Source of the DNA: the human T2T-CHM13v2.0 reference genome, Homo sapiens
DNA length: 64,000 bases
Direction: 5' to 3' (one strand)
Assembly (NCBI RefSeq): GCF_009914755.1
Contig: NC_060947.1
A program made the position numbers and the translations under genes. The notes under the pieces were generated by a model. It ran no database searches. It had not been told where the DNA came from and saw only the letters and a program-made list of their open reading frames with translations. Shown piece after piece: positions 49,704 to 64,000 of the stretch (its first letter is position 1; each line of letters opens with the position of its first letter).

Positions 49704-50199
49704 GTGGAGAAACTGAATATAGAGACAGACGATGGACAGTTTTTATAAAAAAATAGATATCTAACCCATAACTTGCAACATCCAACCTAGAAAGCCAAAT
49801 CTTGAACTCTGCAGCAAACGGTTCATGAAATCAAACCACAGCCTCTTTGAAGTCAGCCTCAAACAGCTAGTACTTGGTTAATAACTGCCAGCTTCCCTAA
49901 TTTTTGTCCCTACTTCCAACTTAAGACCAATTGGAGAAAGCCAACTATGCTTCTTTAATCAATCATGTAAGATGCCTTGCTTCTAGTTAGCCTGAATTCA
50001 GCTTCCCCGTGCCAACAGCCTCCAATCAGGGTGTATATAAAGCTTTTCCTTTTTTTATGCCATAAAGATTTCCCAGTTCTTTGCCTTCTTTTCAATCTCT
50101 GCAAAATGCAAGTGATTGTGGCTCACTCCTTTGCTATAGCAAACTGAATAAATAGTCTTTAATTGTTCTCATTTTTGGTGGTTTTCATTTATTTCCACA
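49704..50199 (+). mobile_element. ERV solo LTR (family not assigned)
   Basis: About 500 bp ending ...tttccaca, with ccaatcag, tatataa and AATAAA in LTR order. Confidence 0.6.
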
Positions 50200-50487
50200 G
50201 GAGGCATATGAAATTTGGAAGGCTGTCTCACTCACCGAAATGGAGCCGTAGGGCTTTGTGAGGCTTCCCTGAACCCCATCATCCTAGACTCTCACTTAGG
50301 CACTGCAACTCTGCAGTTGTGTTGCAATGAGAGGCTGCCAGTCTTCTCTGGCTAGACTTTGGAAATGAGATACAACAGTCATTTCTGCTTTCTGGTCCTC
50401 CTAAAATTAGCTGAGAGATTTTTGAAGAGTCTATTCCTCCATCTCCCTGGGGGTTTTGGGTTTTGGGTTTTAACCATAAGAAGGGAC

Positions 50488-50791
50488 TTTTTTTTTTTTT
50501 TTTTTTTGATACGGGACTCTGTTGCCCAGGCTGGATTACAGTGGCAAGATCTCGGCTCACTGCAACCTCTCCCTGCTGGGCTCAAGTGATCCTCCTGCCT
50601 CAGCCTCCTGAGTAGCTGAGACTACAGGTGCGTGCCACCATGCCTGGCTATTTTTTTTTTTTTATATTTTTTGTATGGATGGGGTTTCGCCATGTTGTCC
50701 AGGCTGGTCTCTAACTTCTGGACTCAAGTGATCCACCTGTCTCGACTTCCCAAAGTGGTGGGATTACAGGCATGAGCCACCGTGCCCGGCC
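50488..50791 (-). mobile_element. AluJb-like
   Basis: Reverse Alu with poly(T); short ggactt duplication on both flanks. Confidence 0.9.
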
Positions 50792-50914
50792 AGGACTTCT
50801 TTTTTAGGGACCCCTACTACTGACTCATTTTGTTGCTGTCTTCTCTCTTTTCAGATCCTCCCTCCTCTTCCTGTAACCCCATTGTGTAGGAAAGGCCTTT
50901 TATTTTGCGTCTGT

Positions 50915-51115
50915 AATGGGTTCAAGACCTGACGTTATCACTTATTAGCTGTGTCATCTTGTGCAAATTACTAATTGGCAACTCATTTTCCTCCTCCATG
51001 TAGTGGGGCTAACAAATAGTACCTGCCTCATAGGGTTGTGAGGATTACATGAGGTATATTCATATAAAAAAACTTTAGTAAAGTGCCGGGCATATAGTAA
51101 GTATTCAAAAGTGTT
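50915..51115 (+). mobile_element. MIR
   Basis: cacttattagctgtgtcatcttgtgcaaattact ... tacctgcctcatagggttgtgaggatta. Confidence 0.75.
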
Positions 51116-51459
51116 GGCTTTACTTTTAAAGTAGACAATAGTTCTAAACTTTTATGAGGGCTGTGATAGAAGTAGACAATTAATGTCATCTAGGTCATAA
51201 AGAGGAATGGAGTTACATTCAATTAGAGAAGGAAGATGTCAAGAAAAACCTTATAGGGAAGTTGTACTTCAAAGATCAATGATTACTGTCAAGCAGATGG
51301 TGGGATGAAGCAGGACTACAAGTGTCTGCAAAAAGGCAAGGAAATGCAAAGGTGATGGTGATGCATGGTGGAGAAGGATGGATATAACGGAGAGGTGGAA
51401 AAGAATGATCTACAGATGCCGATTTCAGCGAATGAGTATAGAGGCATATTGATCAATAG

Positions 51460-52100
<641 letters not shown>

Positions 52101-52109
52101 GCAGCAGTG

Positions 52110-52420
52110 TAGAGGGCAGACATCAGAATAGTAAAATTAGAAATAGGGGGTTAGTTAATATATCATTGCAGTAGTGCAGGCAAGAGTGATGAGGACATGA
52201 ACAAAGGCAACAGCTGGAGAAGTAGAGTGTAACTGAAATGTTGAGACTAACCCATCTAGGGCTTGGTGATTCGTTCCATATGGGGGTGAGGGAGTGTGTG
52301 ATATTAAGGATGACTACCAAGTTTCTGAATTGGGATTTGAGTGGATGGACTTGCCATTCAACATGATAGAACAACTGGAGAAGAAACAGATTTGGAAGAA
52401 GACTATCATTTTATAATGGA
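52110..52420 (-). mobile_element. L2 fragment
   Basis: aaggatgactaccaagtttctgaattggg...tggatggacttgccattcaac typical of L2. Confidence 0.65.
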
Positions 52421-52672
52421 GGTGGGGGCAAGGGAGAGGTGACCTAAAACTATTGTTATTCTTTAGTATTGGTTCCCAGATTTCAGTGTACAAGAAAAAT
52501 CACTTGAGACCTTGTTAAGAATATAGATTTTTACTCTGTTCTCTATTTTCTTTTTAGGAGGACTTAGAATAAGGCCAGTGATCTGTTTTTTTCTTTCCTT
52601 TTTTTTTTTTTTTGAACAAATAGCCCCAGTATGGTATTTAAAACTCAGTTAAGTGTACTAAGAAGTATTTAC

Positions 52673-52921
52673 CCTCCCTGTGTCCGTGTGTTCTCATTGT
52701 TCAACTCCCATTTATAAGTGAGAATATACGGTATTTGGGGCCTGTCAGGGGAGGATGGCAGGGGTAGAGCGTTAGGGAAAAGAGCTAATGCATGCTGGGC
52801 TTAATGCCTAGGTGATGAGTTGATAGGTGCAGCAAACCACCATGGACACATTTCCCTGTGTAACAAACCTGCATGTCCTGCACATGTACCCTGGAACTTA
52901 AAAAAAATAAATTTTTTTAAA
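52673..52921 (+). mobile_element. Very short twin-primed (5'-inverted) L1PA 3' end
   Basis: 52673-52736 is L1 3' sequence in minus orientation; 52737-52921 is the + strand 3' terminus with A tail; TSD aagaag(t/c)a(t/c)ttac 52660-52672 / 52922-52934. Confidence 0.82.
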
Positions 52922-53084
52922 AAGAAGCACTTACAAAATAAAACTGAAAGCAAATTTAAAATTATACTGAAAGTATATTTCTTGCCTATAAATGGATAGT
53001 GATTCTTAAAAGTTTGATTATGATAGACAATTTACAATGTTTTTTACACAGCTATATAAAATATTCACAGTGTAATGAAATAAT

Positions 53085-53090
53085 TTTAAT
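53085..53090 (-). terminator. Candidate poly(A) signal (ATTAAA) of the SH3BGRL3-like gene
   Basis: ATTAAA on the minus strand about 150 nt after the TGA stop, followed by a CA and a U-rich stretch. Confidence 0.45.
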
Positions 53091-53236
53091 GCGCGATTGA
53101 AACAGGAAAGGCCCATGTGTCAAACTGGTTATGTTAGTGAAAGAGTTCTGTTTTTATAGTTTTAAAAGTAACTGATATATATGGATGTATATGTGGATCC
53201 ATACCAGTAAGTGTCTCTTGTATCATAACTATCCAT

Positions 53237-53302
53237 TCATTCCATCTTCAGGAATTTCAGAATCTCTTTATTCTCCTTTGCTTTGTAAAACATTTCAAAA
53301 TG
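53237..53302 (-). pseudogene. SH3BGRL3-like exon 3 (acceptor degenerate: TTTTTGG instead of AG)
   Basis: HFEMFYKAKENKEILKFLKME*; TGA at 53237-53239; aligns with SH3BGRL3 DYELFVEAVEQNTLQEFLKLA as recalled. Confidence 0.85.
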
Positions 53303-53696
53303 CCAAAAATAATTAATTTGTAATACTACTGCTGATAATTTTTAATTATGAAGTTATTAAGTTCAGGTATATAGGTTAAGTTTGCTAATTATCTTGCTGG
53401 ACATTTGCAAACCTCTGCCAACTGTTAGAAGAAAAATTTCCCCAGAACACTAGTCATTTCATATTATAATGTATGGTGAAAACTACTGCATAAGTATCCC
53501 AAAACAAGTGGCATGATATATTTTTCTTTTATGATAATCTTTTTATCAAAAGTACAAATTGTTTTGTCTTCAGAGACATAGTTAAGTTATTCTGTAGATA
53601 GGTAAATCTGAATCTCATACTCCATAAATGTAATATTTCCCCATGTATATGACCTTAAGGTGTCAAAATAAAATAACAATGGACATTTACTCTTAC

Positions 53697-53864
53697 TCCA
53701 CGATATTCTTGACCATTGAATATCTGAGGTGGTAGAGCCTTAAGGGTAGAAACCTTTATTCTCATTTATTGAAGTACTTTAAAACTGATAGAAACATCTG
53801 TTAATTCATACTTTATATTGTAACTCTCTAAAATTCTAGTAACTTCTTCTTGTCTCTGCTTCAC
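53697..53864 (-). pseudogene. SH3BGRL3-like exon 2 with in-frame TAA
   Basis: Strong acceptor (ctttctatttctctctccctctatctAG), donor GTAAGA at 53696-53691, 168 nt, stop at 53766-53768. Confidence 0.93.
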
Positions 53865-55431
53865 CTAGATAGAGGGAGAGAGAAATAGAAAGATGTTAAT
53901 CTGCTGGCTGGTCCCAATGTTTTTATATTTTTTTCATTTTCCCTGTCCATTATATTATGGAACAGGAACAGCTTTTAACGGTGTAATTTTCTTTGAGGGG
54001 CAAAAGTTAGATAACTTTCTTGTGAAATCATATATATACACACATATATGTAATATATAAATATATTAAATAGCTGTATTTGATATATAATATATATTTT
54101 ATTTTTCATCCTCCCATGGGTTTTATTTCTATATTTAGGCATAGTTTCTGATTGTGATTTGGAACTTGTAGTATGTTTTCCTCAAATTAAAAAACCTGGT
54201 ATCATGTTCATTTTCATATATATATAAAGAATTTTAGTGGGGGCAGAAAATCCCTAATGGGTTATAAATATTTACCAGATTGATTTCATAACACACTTGA
54301 AGTGGTAAGAACATTCTGCTAACACTTGAGGCAGCCTTTGCACTCCTCACTGCATTAATTTATGCTAATATCTATGGCAGCTTTGCGTAGGAAATGGACA
54401 TGATACCAGGTTTTTAAGTTTGTGGAAACCATACTACAAGTTCCAAATTATAATCATAGACTATGCCTAAATATAGAGATAAAATCCACAGGATGGAAAA
54501 ATAAAAGAAAATAAATACACAAGGGGATTAATATTTACAAATACGTGAGTGGATAAAAGTGGTCAGTTCTTGCTATGTTCTCTCGTGTGAACTGTAAGAT
54601 TTGTATCATCTGTTAACAGACTGTTTTTTTCCATTGCCTTTTCCCCTGAAACACATGTAACTGCTAAAGTAAAATGTTAATAGTTGGCTGTCTTTTAAAC
54701 ATATTTTTTAACTACAATTTTAAAAATAAGTACAGCATGAATGTTAGGTAAAGGTTGAGGTTTCTGTGTTTTTGCACAACAATCTTAGACCATTTTGTCA
54801 CATAAAACCTCTAATGCTAGCAGGAGAAAACATATGTGAAAGTAATTTGAGAGGTACAAACCCCAGTTTATTCAAGTGGGATTCCTGTGAAAGTCAGTGG
54901 GCTTTTTGTTTAATGACTTGCAAATATTCCAGCCATGCTTAAGAAACTCTGCCTATTTCCAACAGACAGCAGAAAAAATTCTGAAGTTCCAAAATTCAGC
55001 ATTTCTACCTTCTAAGCCTTCTTAGATTTTGAGGTTGCAAAAGCATGTTGAATGTGACATGTCACATTTTTGTAGTAGTTTTTCAAAACCTTTTCAAAGG
55101 AAACCATTAAGAGAAGAACAGCCTAGACCAATGTTATTCTGCGTGTGATTCACAGACTGGCAGCATCAGCATTACTACACTTTAAGTCTACAAAATCAGA
55201 CTCACTGGGAATGTGTCTTAGGTATCTGTTTTAACAAGTCCTCTAGATGATTTTTTTGCTACAGTTTGGGAGTCATGGACCAATAGTTGGGTGAATCTTT
55301 TGCTGCACCCATCATGGTCTTTATTTATTAAATTATTCTTTCTTATGGATGCTTAGTACCGGTACTCAATAACATAAATCACAGTGTTAAAAACAACAGC
55401 AACTAGTCAAATAGTCCATAATTTTCTTTTT

Positions 55432-55603
55432 CTTTCTTTCTTTCTTTTTTAAATCCGTATAAATGTATGGGGTACAACTGCAGTTTTGTTGCATGGGTAT
55501 ACTGCAGAGTGGTGAAGTCGGGTCTTTTAGTGTGTCCATCACCTGAATAATGTACATTGTACTCATTAAGTAATTTCTCATTACCCACACCCCTCCCATT
55601 CTT
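55432..55603 (-). mobile_element. Short L1 (L1PB/L1MA-type) 3' end in intron 1 of the pseudogene
   Basis: T-rich tail plus L1 3' terminus; TSD cataa(t/c)tttcttttt 55417-55431 / 55604-55618. Confidence 0.8.
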
Positions 55604-55883
55604 CATAACTTTCTTTTTAAAAACAGCCTTTTGCTATCGTTGTTTCTTAATACCCAAGTGAAATCACTAATCTACCAGACCAGGTTTTATGCAACAGCAA
55701 TGCACTCTTTCTAGGCTGAGATCAAACCTCATTCCTGTCTGCAGTTATCATGGCGTCTGGCACATAGCAATCATGTAGAGTGTTTGTCAACCATTTATAA
55801 TAATCTCCACATCCTTCAGTTTTCATTCTTCTCTAAAAACTTTGCAGAATGAGGTTCTAAGTCATATAATCGTCTGTCTTTAA

Positions 55884-56168
55884 CTGTGCTATCCAATGTG
55901 ATAACCACTAGTCACATGTGACTTTTGTGTTCTTGAAAAGTCGCTAGTCCAAAATGAGATGTGCCATATGCGCGCAAATCCATGCTGGATTTTGAAGACA
56001 ATGTGAAAAAAAGAATAAGTAACATCTTTTAAAAACATTGACTACATATTGCAATGATATTTTGTAAATTTTGTGTCAAATAAAACTTTAGTATCTTTTT
56101 TAAGTGGCAACTACAATTTTTTAAATTTGATATGTGACTCACATTATATTTCTGTTGGAAGGCATGGT
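55884..56168. mobile_element. MER33/MER3-like hAT-Charlie DNA transposon relic
   Basis: ctgtgctatccaatgtgataaccactagtcacatgtg start and cacattatatttctgttgga end. Confidence 0.75.
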
Positions 56169-56647
56169 TCTATAATATTTCTTTTATCCCCGTCAAAATA
56201 ATTCATCTAAACTTTAATTCATCTAAGAAATGTCTCATCTATGCAAATACAATTGCTTCTTAGAAATCAACAACCAGTTTGCCCTTCTTTTAGGTTGCCT
56301 TGACTTCTTGGATGATTTTGGCCATTCACTCACTGACATTTTTCCTCTTCTGTACTAAACAGGATTTTTTACTTCTTCCATTTGAAACATCTGCAAAATT
56401 ATTGGAGGACCTTAAGATGGTTGAGCTCAGAATACTGAAACCTCCCGGATCATTCCATTCTAAGAGCACAACCTAAGTGAGGGCAATAATCACTTTCTCT
56501 GTTTTCCTTGCACCTCCCACCTTTGAAAACTTAGAGTTGAAGAATAGAAGGCAGAAACGGGCTGATAATGTCTTAGCACAATCTTAAGTCTTCACTCCTA
56601 CCCACTATCCCCACCCCACTGGCTGAGGTTCTTTTCTTCCCACTCAC

Positions 56648-56695
56648 CTCCCTAGAGCCTGACATGCTGGTGTAATAGACTTTAATGGAACTCAT
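56648..56695 (-). pseudogene. SH3BGRL3-like exon 1 (coding part)
   Basis: ATG in GAAACAATGA context (A at -3), MSSIKVYYTSMSGSRE, consensus donor GAG|GTGAGT at 56647-56642. Confidence 0.92.
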
Positions 56696-56769
56696 TGTTT
56701 CCACTGAGTCTACTTTGCAGAAGCAACACAGGGTCAGCCTCTTCACCGCTGCTTCAGGCTCAACTCCCA

Positions 56770-56835
56770 TACCCCGCCCTGCCCTTATCCTTGGCCATTG
56801 GTAAGGGCCAGCGGCCCATGCACTCACCATTGGCT
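56770..56835 (-). promoter_or_regulatory. Putative promoter: GC box, GATA motif and two CCAAT boxes
   Basis: GGGCGGGG 56772-56779, GATAAG 56784-56789, CCAAT at 56797-56801 and 56829-56833 (32 bp apart), 80-140 bp upstream of the ATG in a locally GC-rich island. Confidence 0.65.
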
Positions 56836-57619
56836 GGGAAACAAGTGCCTCTGTAGCCTAGGCAAGGGTCCATTCCAGGGAATGCTGGTGAAGAGGAAGT
56901 GGAATCCCCACTGGCTTGGGGGAGTGGTCTGGACACCTAGGGATGATAAACTACAGGTAAGTCCTCTTCTATTGTCTCATCTGCGAGGCTCAGGGGAGGG
57001 GGAGAGGGAAGAGCAAATTGAATCTGCAATCCTGCTGCCTTTTCTCCCCCTCCATGCTTGGGAATGGAGGAGAACATGAACTTTCCTGCTGTCAACTGCA
57101 GCCACGCTTGAAAGACCTAGATACCTGAGGGAGAAAATGGCCAAAATAAAATGTAATCAGTGAAGAAAAGATAAATAAAAATCACGTTGCTTGTGCTTGT
57201 AGGGACAGAGCAAAAGGTGCCTGTCAGGACATGACCACTTTATCAACTTTTGTTATCTCTTAGCACAGGGAAATGCCTCCATTCTCCAGTCCTCCTCCCT
57301 TCTTGAGGGCGTGCTTTGTAAGCTGCCCTTTCCTTCTGGGAGTTGACCTTTTGGTTTCTGAAATAGCGGGTTCAATTGTCCCTGCCTGTCCTACACTTCC
57401 TCTTCCTTTTTCCTGTATAAAAGGGACCTCTGTCTTAAATGCTTGCTTCCTCTTCAATACGTTCATATCTCATTTTTTCAGCCTTTATTTTTTATTGTAA
57501 CCTTGTAAGGTAGTGGAAAATAGGAACAATATTTACAGGATTTGGGCAGTTTGCCAAATGTGGGGAATAGAAATTGAGAGTGAAGGGCCAAAGAACCTCA
57601 ACTCCAAACGTTTGAGTTA

Positions 57620-57830
57620 GGCACAGTTAGAATCTATGGCTCTACCACTTAATAACTATGAGTCTCAGGTAAATTACTTTCTCCAGTGTCAGTTTCTTTA
57701 TTGTTAAAAAGAGGGCAGTGATACCAACCTAAAAGCATCATTGTGAGGATTAAAATAATTGAGTACATAAAAGTGTTTGGTAAACTGTCTGACACATTGT
57801 AGGTAGTGCAGAAAATGATAATAAGTTTTG
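57620..57830 (+). mobile_element. MIR
   Basis: gctctaccacttaataactatgagtctcaggtaaattac...ttgtgaggattaaaataa. Confidence 0.65.
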
Positions 57831-57849
57831 TTTATGATAATAAGTGCCA

Positions 57850-58560
57850 CACTCTCCATATTGCTTGGGAACACATGCATGAATAAGACAAAGTGTTTAC
57901 CTTCAAGGAACTCACAGAGTGATAACTGGTAAGATGAAGTAAATACAATTAAGAGAAATCAAAACCAGGCTAGGTGGGTTAAGGCATGTATCTTTAAAGC
58001 ACTGAAACCTGATGGATGTATATACTCTGCCAGGAAATTATGAGAAAGAAAACATTTCAGGTAGAAGGACCGATAATGAAGCAATGTGGTAATTGGAGCT
58101 TTGGGAGCAAGTGGAGGAAAAGATGGAGGCTGAGGAAGTAAACAAGGCAAATCACAGAGGGGTTCAGCTTTCATGTTGTATTTTGATTTTTAATCATTGG
58201 AGGGTATTTTCTGTTTTTTAAAATTGTGGATAATCCCAACTGGCAGATTTGCTGCGAAGATTAAGCATAGAAGTTTCCTAAGAACATCTTTCACTTATGA
58301 GACACTCAATAAATTGTGTCTATGCTTATTATTAAATGATGGGTGATCAGAAGCCATTGAAGATTTCAGAAGGTTTGTGAGAAAGGTAGACCAATCTAGG
58401 ATGGCAATTGGATTGGAAAGAGGCAAGGTTGGAAGCAACTACAAAAATCTAAGAACCAAAAGTCATGAGAGAAGTGAAAAGGCAGATATTCTGAGGACAG
58501 GGCATTGCTACAACTGATTGAGCTGGAGGTAGGGGTGAGGACGGCAAAAGAGGTGGGATA
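57850..58560 (-). mobile_element. Degenerate L2 fragments
   Basis: gaataagacaaagtgtttaccttcaaggaactcaca and gaagccattgaagatttcag motifs. Confidence 0.5.
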
Positions 58561-58589
58561 TAACATAAAGGAGTCTATGTTAGAAGCAA

Positions 58590-61500
58590 AAAGTGTTCCA
58601 TTTTCCCAACACCTCACCAGCATCTGTCATTTTTTGACTTTTTAATAATAGCCATTCTGAGCTTTTACACTGTTGGTGGGAATGTAAATTAGTTCAACCA
58701 TTGTGGAAGACAGTATGGTGATTCCTCTAGGATCCTGAACCAGAAATACCATTTGACCGAGCAATCCAATTACTGGGTATATCCCCAAATGAATATAAAT
58801 CATTCTGTTATAAAGATATATGCACACATATGTCTATTGCAGCACTATTCACAATAGCAAAGATATGGAATCAACCCAAAACCCATTAATGATAGACTGG
58901 ACAAAGAAAATGTGGTACATATACACCATGGAATACTATGCAGCCATAAAAATGAATGAGATTATGTCTTTTGGAGCTGGAAGGCATCATCCTCAGCAAA
59001 GTAACACAGGAAAACAAAACCAAGCACCATATACTCTCACTCATAAGTGGGAGCTGAACAACGAGAACACATTGACACAGGGAGGGGAACAACACGAACT
59101 GGGGCCTGTCAGGGGGCAGAGGGAGGTGAGCAGCAGGACAAACAGCTAATGCATGTGGAGCTTAATACGTAGGTGATGGATTGATAGGTGCAGCAAACCA
59201 CTGTGACACACATTTACCTATGTAACAAACCTGCACATTCTGCACATGTATCCCAGAACCTAAAAAAAAATAAAAAAAATAATAATAACAATAGCAATTC
59301 TGACTGGTGTGAGATGGAATCTCATTTTGAATTTGATTCGCACTTCTCTAATAATTAGTGATACTGAAAATTTTGTCATATGCGTGTTGGCTGGGTCTAT
59401 ACCTTATTTTGAAAAATGTCTGCATCCTTTGCCTGCTTTTTGATAGGGTTGTTTTTTTTTATGCATGTTACTTTAAGTTCCTTATAGATTCTGGATATTA
59501 GACCTTTGTTGGGTGCATAATTTGCTAATATTTTCTCCCATTTAATAGATTGTCTGTTTACTCTGTTGATAGTTTCTTTTGCTGTGCAGAAGCTCTTTAG
59601 TTTATTTAGGTTCCAATTGTCAATTTGTGTTTCTGTTGCAATTGCTTTTGGCATCTTGGTCATAAAATCTTTTCCAGGTCCTTTGTCCAGAATGGTGTTT
59701 CCCAGGTTATCCCCCAGAATTCTTATAGTTTTAGGTTTTACATTTAAGTGTTTAATCCATCTTGAGATAATTTTTGTATATGGTGTAAGGAAGGGCTTCA
59801 GTTTCAGTCTTCTGCAGATGGGTAGCCAGTTGTTCCAGCACCATTTATTCAATAGGGAGTCCTTTCCCCATTGCTTGTTTTTGTCAATTTTGTTGAAGAT
59901 CAGATGGTTGTAGGTGGCTGGCATTATTTCTGGAGTCTCTATTCTGTTCCATTAGCCTATGTGTCTTTTTTTTTTGTACCAATATCATGCTATTTTGGTT
60001 ACTGTAGACTTTTAGTATAGTTTGAAGTCAGATAATGTGATGCCTCCAGCTTTGTTCTTTTAGCTTAGGGTTGCCTTGGCTATTCGGGCTCTTCTTTGGT
60101 TCCAAATGAATTTTAAATTAGAGTTTTCTAATTCTGTAATGAAATTTGTGTTTGATAGGAATAGCATTGACTTGGTAGTTTCATAGGAATAGCATTGAAT
60201 GTGTAAATTGCTTTGGGCACTATGGCCATTTTAACAATATTAATTCTCCCTACCTATGATCATGGAATGTTTTTCCATTTGTTTGTGCCATCTCTGATTT
60301 CATTAAGCAGTATTTTGTAATTCTTGCTGTAGAGGTTTTTCACCTCCTTGGTTAGCTATATTCTTGAGTATTTTATTCTTTTTGTGGCTATTTTGAATGG
60401 GATTGCATTCTTAATTTAGTTCCCAGCTTGGATGTTGTTGGTTTATAGGGATGCTACTGATTTTTGTACATTGATTTTGTGTCCTGAAACTTTGCTGAAG
60501 TTGTTTATCAGATAGATCAAGGAGCTTTTGGGCAGAGACTATAGGGTTTTCTAGCTATAGAATCATATTGTCTGCAAACAGGGAAAATTTGCCTTCCACT
60601 CTTCCCAACTGGATGCCTTTTATTTCTGGCTCTTGCCTAATTACTCAGGCCAGGACTTCCAGTACAATGTTGAATAGGACTAGAGAGAGAGCGTATCCTT
60701 GTCTTGTTCCAGTTTTCAGTGGGAATGCTTCCAGCTTTTACCCATTCAGTACGATGCTGGCTATGGTGTTTCATAGATGGTGCTTATTATTTTGAAGTAT
60801 TTTCCTTCAATGCCTAGTTTGTTGAGGGTGTTTAACATGAATAAATATTGAATTTTACGGAAGACCTTTTCTGCATCTACTGAGATGATCATGTGGTTTT
60901 TACTTTTAGTTCTGTTTATGTGGTGAATCACATTTATTGATTTGTGTATGTTGAATCAACCTTGCATTTTAGGGATGATGGTGGATTAGCTTTTTGATGT
61001 GTTGCTGGACTTTGTTTACTATAATATTAACAGTATTTTGTTGAGGATGTTTGCATCTATGTTCATCAAGGATATTGCCTTGAAACTTTCTTTTTTTGTG
61101 TGTGTCTCTGCAAGGTTTTGGTATCAACATCACGGTGGCATCATGAGTCAGGGAGGAGTCCATCCCCATCATTGTTTTTGAAGTATTTTCAGTAGGAATG
61201 GTACCAGCTCTTTTTTATGCACCTGGTAGAATTCAGCTGCGTTTTTGGTCCTGGGCTTTTTTTGGTTGGTGTGCTTTTTATTACTGATTCAATTTCAGAA
61301 CTTGTTATTGGTCTGTTCAGGGATTCAATCTCTTCCTGGTTAAATCTCAACATGTTGTATGTTGCCAGGAATTTATTTCTTCTAAGTTTTCTGGCTTGTG
61401 TGCATAGAGGTATTCATAGTAGTCTCCGAGGGTGTTTTTTTTTTTTTTCTATTTCTGGGTTATCATTGGTAATGTCCCCTTTGTCATTCTGATTGTGTTT

Positions 61501-61700
61501 TTCTCTTTTTTTTATTAGTCTAGCTAGCAGTCTAATTTCTTCCAAGGAACAAACTCCTGGATTCGTTGACCTTTTGTATGGTTTTTCTTCTCATTTTTCT
61601 TCAATTTAGCTCTGATTTTGGTTATTTATTTTGTCTTCTGCTAACTTTCGGGTTGGGTTGCTCTTTTCTCTCTCTTTTTCTTCTTCTTCTTTTTTTTTTT
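58590..61700 (-). mobile_element. Old L1PA ORF2 fragment, host of a nested + strand L1
   Basis: ORF2 homology 59397..59924 and 60969..61172; lacks 3'UTR. Confidence 0.85.
58661..59285 (+). mobile_element. 5'-truncated L1PA (about PA8-11) 3' end inserted antisense into the host L1
   Basis: 3'UTR and A tail at 59260-59285; TSD taa(t/c)aatagc(c/a)attctga 58643-58660 / 59286-59303. Confidence 0.88.
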
Positions 61701-62109
61701 AAATAGGTTTCATTATGTTTCCAGTGTAGGATTGTGACATGCCTCCTCATTTCACTGTGAGCCATTCCCTTGACTCTAAGCTAAATTAGTGCACTACTTC
61801 TTACAAGAGTGTATCTTTGACAACCTAAAATAATTAGGTTACTATGGCATACAAAATTATAACCTACTCTATAGTATGTTTGTGATAATCATTTATAATG
61901 GTAAAACTGTAAAACAAAAGCTGTATTGATAATTGTCGATAAAAATGTGAACTACATAGATATTTTGCTTATGCTGCCTAGTCTACTTTGGCAGTTTGCA
62001 TCTGGGTGTAAAAATCCTTCTAAAAAACAGGTAAGACATTTGTGAGGCTGAGGAAAATACATTATAAAGAGGGTAGTAAAGATTTTTCTTCTTCTTTTGT
62101 GTGTGTAAA

Positions 62110-62970
62110 TGTTTTATTATTATTCAAGTAATACGTGAATACATGCTCATTTGTACAAGAATTCAAACCATGTGTAAATATATAGAGTAAAATGTGAAAA
62201 TATTCCTTCAGTTACCGCCTACCACTGTCCCTCCAGAGGAAGCTACTATTAAGAATTTGATTTGTATCCTTTTCCGCCAACATGGTTACACATATTAAGG
62301 TAACTAAAAGGGAGAAAAAGTCAGTTTAACAAAGAAGTTAACCATGCTTTCTTTGAAGCTGGGCTTCCTGGGTTAAAACCCAGATTCTGTTACTTAATGT
62401 TGTGTGATATTGGTGATGTTATCTAATGTCTCTGTGCCTGGGTTTCCTCATAGGTAAAATGGGGATATTAAGCGCTTCATAGACATGTTATGAGGATGTC
62501 TTTAGCATGTGTGAAGTATTTAGAATAGTGCCTGGCATATAGTGCACACAATTCATCATGGAATCATGATGCATATATTGTTTCACAACTTGTATTCTGT
62601 ACACATAGGGGAAATGTAGTGTAGCCATTAAGAGCATGGATTCTGGTTCTGAATCCAATTATCAGGTGCAAATCCTAGTTCTATCATTTACTAGCTTTAT
62701 GCCTGTCAGGAAGTATATAAACTTCCTTTGTTTTCTCTGTAAAATGGGGGTAGTAGCTTTAGCTCTAAATTAAGTACTATATATAGGACATTTAGAATGA
62801 CTGACATGTAGTAATTACTCTGTAGATGCTTATTATTATTATGTCATTGAAAGCACTCAGTTTATTATTTCATGTTATAGATATATTATAATTAATTTAA
62901 CAATTCGTAGTTGATGGTCATTTAGATTACTTCTAAATATTCATTGTTACAAAATATTCTGGTATCCATA
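62110..62970. mobile_element. Interleaved L1ME-like 3' fragments and two MIRs (~62360-62545, ~62615-62840)
   Basis: MIR cores (tctctgtgcctgggtttcctcataggtaaaatgggg; ctctgtaaaatgggggtagtag) between degenerate L1M 3' sequence. Confidence 0.6.
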
Positions 62971-62977
62971 CTTTAAC

Positions 62978-63545
62978 TAAAGATGGAATTACCATTTGAC
63001 CCATTAGACCCACTGCTGGGTACCTATCAGAAGAAAAATAAATTGTTATGTAAAAAAAAACACCTGTACTTGTGTGTTTATCACAGCACTATTCACAATA
63101 GAAAAGTCATGGAATCAATTTGAGTGTCCATCAGTAGATGATTGGATAAAGAAAATATGGTATATACACACAATAGAATACTACCCAGCCATAAAATAAG
63201 AGTGAAATCATGTCTTTTGCAGCAGCATGAATGGAGTTTGAGGCCATTATCCTAAGTGAAATAACTTAGAAAGAGAAAACAAAATACCACACTTTCCCAC
63301 TTACAAGTGGGAGCTAAATGGGTATAAATGAGCATACGGAGGAAAATAATAGACACTGGAGACTACAGAAGGGGGCAGGTTGGGAGGGGGATGAGGGTTG
63401 AAAAATTACCTGTTGGGTACAATGCTCACTTTTCAGGTGATGGGTATGCTAGAAGCCTAAACTCCACCACTGCACAATATATCCATGTAACAAACCTGCA
63501 CATGTACCCCATGAATCTATAAATATTTTTTAAAAATTAAAATAA
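62978..63545 (+). mobile_element. L1PB4-like 3' end
   Basis: ORF2 C-terminus and 3'UTR (gagggttgaaaaattacctgttgggtacaatg...tgtaccccatgaatctataaa). Confidence 0.85.
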
Positions 63546-64000
63546 CCTTGTCTCTGCCTTAACTTGTATGAAAAAAAGCTAGTGCTATTAACATTTTCCC
63601 ATTCTCATTGTTACTGAAAACTTGAATAAACATTTTCAAGATCCTCTTTTGGATCACTACCATACCGAACATGTGATCAATCCATGTCATTTTCTTATTA
63701 GTTTGGTTCAATCCCAGGGTGTGAGTGGAAAGCAGAACAATTTGTGTGGTTAAAGCTTTATTTTTGAAGAGTAAACGAAATATGAGAACTAAATGAGCCA
63801 AACAGGACATCTTCTGTGTTTTTACTGTTGGAGTCTCAGAAAAACAAATCTTTAGGTATCCTGATATTTCAAAAAGGTAAGTCTAAAATCTTACATATTT
63901 TGGTTCTTTTTTTTGATTTTCTTCACAGAAGGCTGTAAATATGAATATAAGTGCATTTCCTGGAAACAGTTATAACAAACAGTGTTGTCTTATAAGAGGA

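What the first reader, a model, noticed from the sequence alone, without database searches (positions are those of the whole stretch)
53300..53768. Only a few point lesions disable the gene, so the loss may be recent and datable
Seen in sequence: TAA at codon 49 (53766-53768), one change from GAA, where SH3BGRL3 has Glu in DEMR. The exon 3 acceptor reads TTTTTGG|CAT instead of AG|GAT, and the motif YCG reads YRG (CGT, 53700-53702). There are no frameshifts, and the other three splice sites are consensus. Inference: inactivation happened within primates or later, and some lesions could be lineage-specific or polymorphic. A transcript with the TAA about 69 nt before the last junction would be a borderline NMD target.
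Basis: partly seen in the sequence, partly recalled or inferred. Interest (0 to 1): 0.7.

Follow-up and report, generated by a model that had tools for sequence, protein, structure and literature searches.

The report
Lost fifth SH3BGR gene in apes
This is a broken human copy of a small gene, missing from the RefSeq table given, that has open reading frames in other mammals, reptiles and amphibians, likely makes an actin-capping protein there, and was likely lost before humans and gibbons split rather than recently.

Summary
The three changes are in the sequence: TAA at codon 49 (53768-53766), GG|CAT at the exon 3 acceptor (53304-53300) and CGT at codon 71. They sit in a three-exon, 93-codon, frameshift-free minus-strand gene (ATG 56695). 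It is not an SH3BGRL3 copy. It is the only human copy found of a fifth SH3BGR paralogue with open predicted proteins in 21 non-primate mammal clusters and in reptiles, a bird and amphibians, mostly labelled 'SH3BGRL3'. So it is a unitary pseudogene, lost within primates.

'Recent' is only partly right. A gibbon model shares Arg71 and six other changes at conserved positions and skips eight codons across codon 49, so decay likely predates the human-gibbon split. It keeps Asp73, so the exon 3 damage is likely younger. YRG is not a proven lesion: working human SH3BGRL has it. The stop is 69 nt before the last junction, but NMD would need the intron whose acceptor is broken. Dating is rough: no primate DNA or population data were available. 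A TASL-family remnant lies head-to-head about 8.5 kb away.

The parts
56775..56833 (-). Promoter-like elements: two CCAAT boxes (first bases 56833, 56801) and a GC box (56779); local GC 0.54-0.57, no CpG island (o/e 0.14-0.19)
   Evidence: motif matches only, activity untested
56696..56750 (-). Likely 5' UTR of exon 1
   Evidence: unnamed protein P0127 matches 56750-56709, then exon 1, exon 2, exon 3 and the 3' flank in order, as a spliced copy would
56648..56695 (-). Exon 1 coding part, 16 codons from ATG, GT donor intact
53865..56647 (-). Intron 1, 2783 nt, GT..AG with pyrimidine tract and branch-point-like site at -32
53697..53864 (-). Exon 2, 168 nt, codons 17-72, holds PPQIF
   Evidence: PF04908 45.4 bits, cut-off 21
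53766..53768 (-). Premature stop TAA, codon 49 (Glu in 18, Gln in 3 of 21 mammal orthologue clusters)
53700..53702 (-). CGT, Arg71 (Cys in 21 of 21 mammal clusters; Arg in the gibbon model and in human SH3BGRL)
53303..53696 (-). Intron 2, 394 nt, GT donor intact, acceptor reads GG; nearby AGs 23-29 nt upstream are out of frame
53237..53302 (-). Exon 3 coding part, 21 codons and TGA; first codon CAT (His73; Asp in 20 of 21 mammal clusters and in gibbon)
53085..53090 (-). ATTAAA, candidate polyadenylation signal about 150 nt after the stop
   Evidence: motif only

Best explanation
This is the broken, single human copy of a fifth SH3BGR-family gene whose orthologues are open in other mammals, reptiles and amphibians; the intact protein is predicted to have the SH3BGRL3 thioredoxin fold and likely caps actin-filament pointed ends, and the gene likely died in a primate ancestor before humans and gibbons split. 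Shown: three exons with introns at the SH3BGRL3 positions, a stop at codon 49, a GG acceptor, and a clade of orthologues apart from SH3BGRL3. Inferred order: (1) constraint relaxed after the split from rodents and rabbits, probably in early monkeys and apes; (2) the codon 49 stop (one G>T change from GAA) was probably in place before the gibbon split, cutting the protein inside helix 44-54 and removing PPQIF, two strands and two helices; (3) neutral drift followed, and the A>G and G>C changes at the exon 3 junction likely came later on the line to humans. Any transcript today would likely retain intron 2 or use an out-of-frame AG and could give at most a 48-residue fragment.
For: Orthologues: 110 proteins at E<=0.001 of 169 candidates; 21 full-length non-primate mammal clusters, 54-79 of 92-93 residues identical to the fossil. 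Same locus: P0006 reads through into intron 2 and aligns with human exon 2 plus intron 2 (55% over 145 aa, E 3e-41); the zebra model's N-terminal extension matches human 57412-57284 and 62283-62206 on the same strand. Tree: human+gibbon sister (100/95), in a mammal clade (100/99), in a tetrapod clade (92/90), apart from SH3BGRL3; AU tests reject a mammalian SH3BGRL3 duplicate (p 0.0005) and an SH3BGRL duplicate (p 8e-5). Single copy: 6 PF04908 places in the genome, four at the expected loci of the known genes, one intronless SH3BGRL3 copy, and this one. Age: 7 of 8 human changes at 61 conserved columns are shared with gibbon; the gibbon model is 85 aa with an 8-codon gap over codon 49; 3 human-only and 3 gibbon-only changes fit neutral drift (2.6-3.8 expected each, assumed branch lengths). 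Fold: bat orthologue pLDDT 94, TM 0.96 to SH3BGRL3 1t1v. Family function: PMC12827327 (abstract and passages).
Against: No primate DNA was seen; the gibbon stop is inferred from a gap in a predicted protein, which could be a real deletion or an assembly error. The excess of changes is modest in a leave-one-out control: human 3-5 against a median of 1, but 5 of 21 mammals have 3 or more. Cluster P0007 has 38 members shown under one name and could hide intact primates. Branch lengths for dating are recalled, and intervals run from zero to the whole branch. The tetrapod clade is just under the star threshold and was left unresolved in the smaller quick tree. All orthologues are predicted proteins; expression and actin binding were not tested.
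Confidence: 0.8

Rival explanations
1. Recent loss (great apes or humans only). The gene worked in the ape ancestor with tolerated changes such as Arg71; the human stop and acceptor change are young, perhaps polymorphic, and the gibbon gap is a separate lesion or an error.
For: No frameshift, three good splice sites, promoter-like boxes present; Arg71 is tolerated in SH3BGRL; other mammals with open frames carry as many changes; a sea otter model also has its own gap.
Against: The gibbon gap falls exactly over codon 49; 5-6 changes on the two ape lines exceed what constraint at omega 0.2 predicts (P 0.005-0.019, assumed lengths); no other named primate appears among 110 hits.
Confidence: 0.12
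2. The locus still works as a non-coding transcript or a 48-residue peptide, which is why promoter boxes and three splice sites remain.
For: CCAAT and GC boxes and exon 1 are intact; intron retention would remove the junction that triggers NMD; two AATAAA hexamers lie at and just after the stop.
Against: No transcript in the RefSeq table given; no Rfam match in 50000-64000; the fragment lacks half of the fold; a few tens of millions of years of drift would leave most short motifs intact anyway (inference).
Confidence: 0.05
3. A duplicated pseudogene of SH3BGRL3 or of the neighbour SH3BGRL that never had its own function.
For: Same exon lengths and phases as SH3BGRL3; databases name the relatives SH3BGRL3; it lies 53 kb from SH3BGRL.
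Against: Only 43% identity to an SH3BGRL3-type protein in exon 2 against 81% to the walrus cluster; AU tests reject both origins; open orthologues reach amphibians.
Confidence: 0.03

Closest known systems
SH3BGRL3 (TPEC-3; PDB 1t1v, 1sj6)
   Same: 93 residues, three exons with the same coding lengths for exons 1 and 2, PPQIF without PXXP, no CXXC; bat orthologue model TM 0.96
   Different: Separate clade, about 50% identical, on X rather than chromosome 1, broken in human
SH3BGRL (X-linked neighbour; PDB 1u6t, 1wry)
   Same: Same family and fold; has YRG at the same motif
   Different: Longer, with a loop insertion and C-terminal tail; opposite strand; not its parent
Human unitary pseudogenes (Zhang et al. 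2010, PMC2864566; Mudge et al. 2019, PMC6886504)
   Same: Intron-bearing, disabled in place, no working counterpart found in the genome, open orthologues elsewhere
   Different: Not found in the parts of those lists that I searched; its orthologues carry the name of a paralogue, which would hide it from name-based screens (inference)

Membership tests
Unitary pseudogene | Unprocessed (keeps introns) | tested here: met
   introns of 2783 and 394 nt at family positions
Unitary pseudogene | Disabling lesion | tested here: met
   TAA at codon 49, GG acceptor
Unitary pseudogene | No working counterpart in the same genome | tested here: met
   only best candidates are scored (15 of 15, 1 of 1, 16 of 16)
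Unitary pseudogene | Intact orthologues in other species | tested here: met
   21 full-length mammal clusters and tetrapod proteins, all predicted models
Unitary pseudogene | Orthologues at the same genomic position | tested here: inconclusive
   intron 2 and upstream flank similarity for two relatives; gene order in other species not seen
Unitary pseudogene | Lesion fixed in the human population | not testable with these tools
   no variant database
SH3BGR family (PF04908) | Domain match over the curated cut-off | tested here: met
   45.4 bits against 21 for exon 2 alone
SH3BGR family (PF04908) | Thioredoxin fold without CXXC, with PPXXF | tested here: met
   bat orthologue model and PDB search; PPQIF at 61-65; features as given in PMC12827327
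SH3BGR family (PF04908) | Caps actin-filament pointed ends | not testable with these tools
   shown for SH3BGRL, -2 and -3 in PMC12827327; inferred here
SH3BGRL3 orthologues or copies | Groups with SH3BGRL3 in a tree | tested here: not met
   (AU p 0.0005 for a mammalian duplicate)
Junction-dependent NMD target | Stop more than 50-55 nt before a junction that is actually spliced | tested here: inconclusive
   69 nt, but the acceptor of that intron is broken; the rule is recalled

The most novel reading that the evidence does not exclude
Tetrapods carry an undescribed fifth actin pointed-end capping protein, hidden in databases under the name SH3BGRL3, and monkeys and apes lost it together with its head-to-head neighbour, the immune adaptor TASL2, whose remnant lies 8.5 kb upstream: two linked gene losses, possibly through one shared regulatory region.
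Probability: 0.2. Interest if true: 0.75.

Novelty: new member of a known kind. Interest (0 to 1): 0.55.

Why it matters
The family is described as four genes (PMC12827327, 2026). A fifth, kept across tetrapods and dead in apes, adds an entry to the short list of human gene losses and gives a testable protein: rat, rabbit, dog-like carnivores and bats have it, humans do not. It also warns that many 'SH3BGRL3' records in non-human animals are a different gene.

Tried and rejected
Upstream AGs as rescue acceptors: none within intron 2's last 150 nt gives the exon 3 frame. Single-sequence fold of the bat protein was poor (pLDDT 53) and was replaced by an alignment-based one. Leucine-rich-repeat hits in the PDB search had no stretch passing the cut-off and were ignored. 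No Rfam family in 50000-64000. The chromosome 6 intronless hit is an SH3BGRL3 copy (77% to an SH3BGRL3-type protein, 47% to the orthologue), not a retrocopy of this gene. Dating by amino-acid counts gave only a wide range. Paper searches found no account of this paralogue or pseudogene. Mouse coordinates of Gm6377 were not in the stored part of the supplement, so the TASL2 synteny is recalled, not shown. No complex prediction was run.

Full report
Observation. The minus strand holds three coding exons: 56695-56648 (16 codons), 53864-53697 (56 codons) and 53302-53237 (21 codons and TGA). Joined, they give 93 codons with one internal stop, TAA at codon 49. CGT is codon 71, and the intron 2 acceptor reads GG before CAT. 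The other three splice sites are consensus, and the stop is 69 nt before the last junction. Two CCAAT boxes and a GC box lie 80-140 nt upstream of the ATG.

What it is. Exon 2 matches SH3BGR proteins in the PDB, best SH3BGRL3 (E 7e-9). A profile search gave 110 proteins of 169 candidates. From these I took the 21 full-length non-primate mammal clusters; I left out partial, intron read-through and alternative-start models, a partial manatee model and a gapped sea otter model. The 21 cover walrus (38 members), bats, pikas, hare, meerkat, donkey, beaver, porcupine and muroid rodents, and are 54-79 residues identical to the fossil. Turtles, tuatara, lizards, crocodilians, a goose and salamanders hold similar proteins. 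Most are named SH3BGRL3 by their sources. In a tree of 66 proteins the fossil is sister to a gibbon model (100/95), inside a mammal clade (100/99), inside a tetrapod clade (92/90) that excludes SH3BGRL3-type proteins. With 93 columns the deep forks are open, and a 34-row quick tree did not resolve the tetrapod clade; but AU tests rejected both a mammalian SH3BGRL3 duplicate (p 0.0005) and an SH3BGRL duplicate (p 8e-5). Two relatives tie the clade to this very locus: an unnamed frame that runs on into intron 2 aligns with the human intron, and a zebra model's extra N-terminus matches human sequence 0.6 and 5.5 kb upstream on the same strand. The human genome gave 6 PF04908 places: chromosomes 1, 6, 21 and X at the expected places of the four known genes, an intronless SH3BGRL3 copy on 6, and this locus; the exon 2-3 DNA is single-copy. 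So this is a unitary pseudogene of a fifth paralogue.

The lesions against true orthologues. Codon 49 is Glu in 18 and Gln in 3 of 21; residue 71 is Cys in 21 of 21; residue 73 is Asp in 20 of 21. The stop falls in helix 44-54 of the bat orthologue's model (pLDDT 94; TM 0.96 to 1t1v) and removes PPQIF, two strands and two helices. It is enough to kill the protein. Arg71 is derived but not shown to be harmful: human SH3BGRL has YRG in its solved structures, and the family has no catalytic CXXC (PMC12827327, passages). The acceptor damage is two changes three bases apart; I saw no orthologue DNA there, so AG|GAT is inferred from Asp73 and from SH3BGRL3's AG|GAC.

Age. The only named primate among the 110 hits is a gibbon model of 85 residues. 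It shares Arg71, lacks eight codons across codon 49, and keeps Asp73. A gap just there is what a gene predictor leaves when it steps over a stop (inference); a real deletion would remove most of a helix and also be a lesion. Of 8 human changes at 61 columns where at least 19 of 21 mammals agree, 7 are shared with gibbon. A leave-one-out control is less striking: human 3-5, median 1, but 5 of 21 mammals reach 3 or more. Since the split there are 3 human-only and 3 gibbon-only changes (one at the gap edge), as neutral drift predicts (2.6-3.8 each) and more than omega 0.2 predicts (P 0.005-0.019). The ape stem alone is too short for 7-11 shared changes (P 0.013 or less). Point estimates put 0.015-0.05 neutral substitutions per site before the ape ancestor, about the root of monkeys and apes, with intervals from zero to the whole branch. 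All branch lengths in these sums are recalled, not measured. Reading: lost within primates, likely before apes, with the exon 3 junction damaged later. Lack of frameshifts in 282 nt does not argue for a young age (inference). Cluster P0007 may hide intact primates.

NMD. At 69 nt the stop is past the usual 50-55 nt rule (recalled), so a fully spliced transcript would be a target. With the acceptor broken, intron 2 would likely be kept or spliced to an out-of-frame AG; if kept, no junction follows the stop. No transcript is in the table given.

How it likely worked. SH3BGRL, -2 and -3 cap actin pointed ends without enzyme activity (PMC12827327, abstract and passages). The orthologues have the same size, fold and motif set as SH3BGRL3, so a tissue-restricted pointed-end capper, redundant enough to be lost, is my best guess; binding and tissue are untested. 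Mus spicilegus (11 changes at conserved columns) and sea otter (gap) may be decaying too.

What is in print. That paper counts four family members. Searches for the paralogue or pseudogene found nothing relevant (listings only). SH3BGR terms were absent from the main text of PMC2864566 (supplements not searched) and from the one supplement each of PMC10195156 and PMC7555810 (main texts not searched). In PMC6886504 they occur only for SH3BGRL3 (files 1 and 8 not searched); its unitary list has one X row, elsewhere, and I saw 30 of 43 chrX places of Data S1, none here. PMC4376344 (passages) does not describe it. GENCODE and HGNC were not available, so an entry there is not excluded.

Neighbour. 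A TASL-family remnant with four stops lies just past the window end, on the plus strand, about 8.5 kb from the ATG, head-to-head. PMC11759703 says Gm6377/TASL2 is absent from the human genome (passages). That this is the TASL2 orthologue rests on my recall of the mouse gene order.

Verdict. Observation confirmed; interpretation partly supported. New member of a known kind; interest 0.55.

Noticed in passing
L006 (G000:C23:79797166-79797807, +; window coordinates about 65166-65807, just past the end): TASL-family remnant (PF15133, 209 bits, four stops; 36% to human TASL), head-to-head with the SH3BGR fossil and absent from the RefSeq table given. Likely the TASL2/Gm6377 orthologue that PMC11759703 calls absent in human.
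   Followed up: partly
window 53770-53765 and 53760-53755 (-): The codon 49 stop and the Ile52 codon each sit in an AATAAA, so both derived changes likely created polyadenylation-like hexamers inside exon 2; may be chance.
   Followed up: no
window 57412-57284 and 62283-62206 (-): Match the N-terminal extension of the zebra gene model P0015; possible ancestral upstream exons or a prediction artefact.
   Followed up: no
L002 (G000:C6:52496115-52496387, +): Intronless SH3BGRL3 copy with two stops; it also reads YRG, an independent Cys-to-Arg change.
   Followed up: partly
proteins P0038, P0056, P0127: Mus spicilegus model has 11 changes at conserved columns, the sea otter model has a 14-residue gap, and unnamed P0127 looks like a spliced, decayed copy of this gene's mRNA: possible further losses and a retrocopy.
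   Followed up: no
window 54135-54235 and 54375-54500: A stretch of intron 1 appears twice, about 250 nt apart, by eye; a short local duplication.
   Followed up: no
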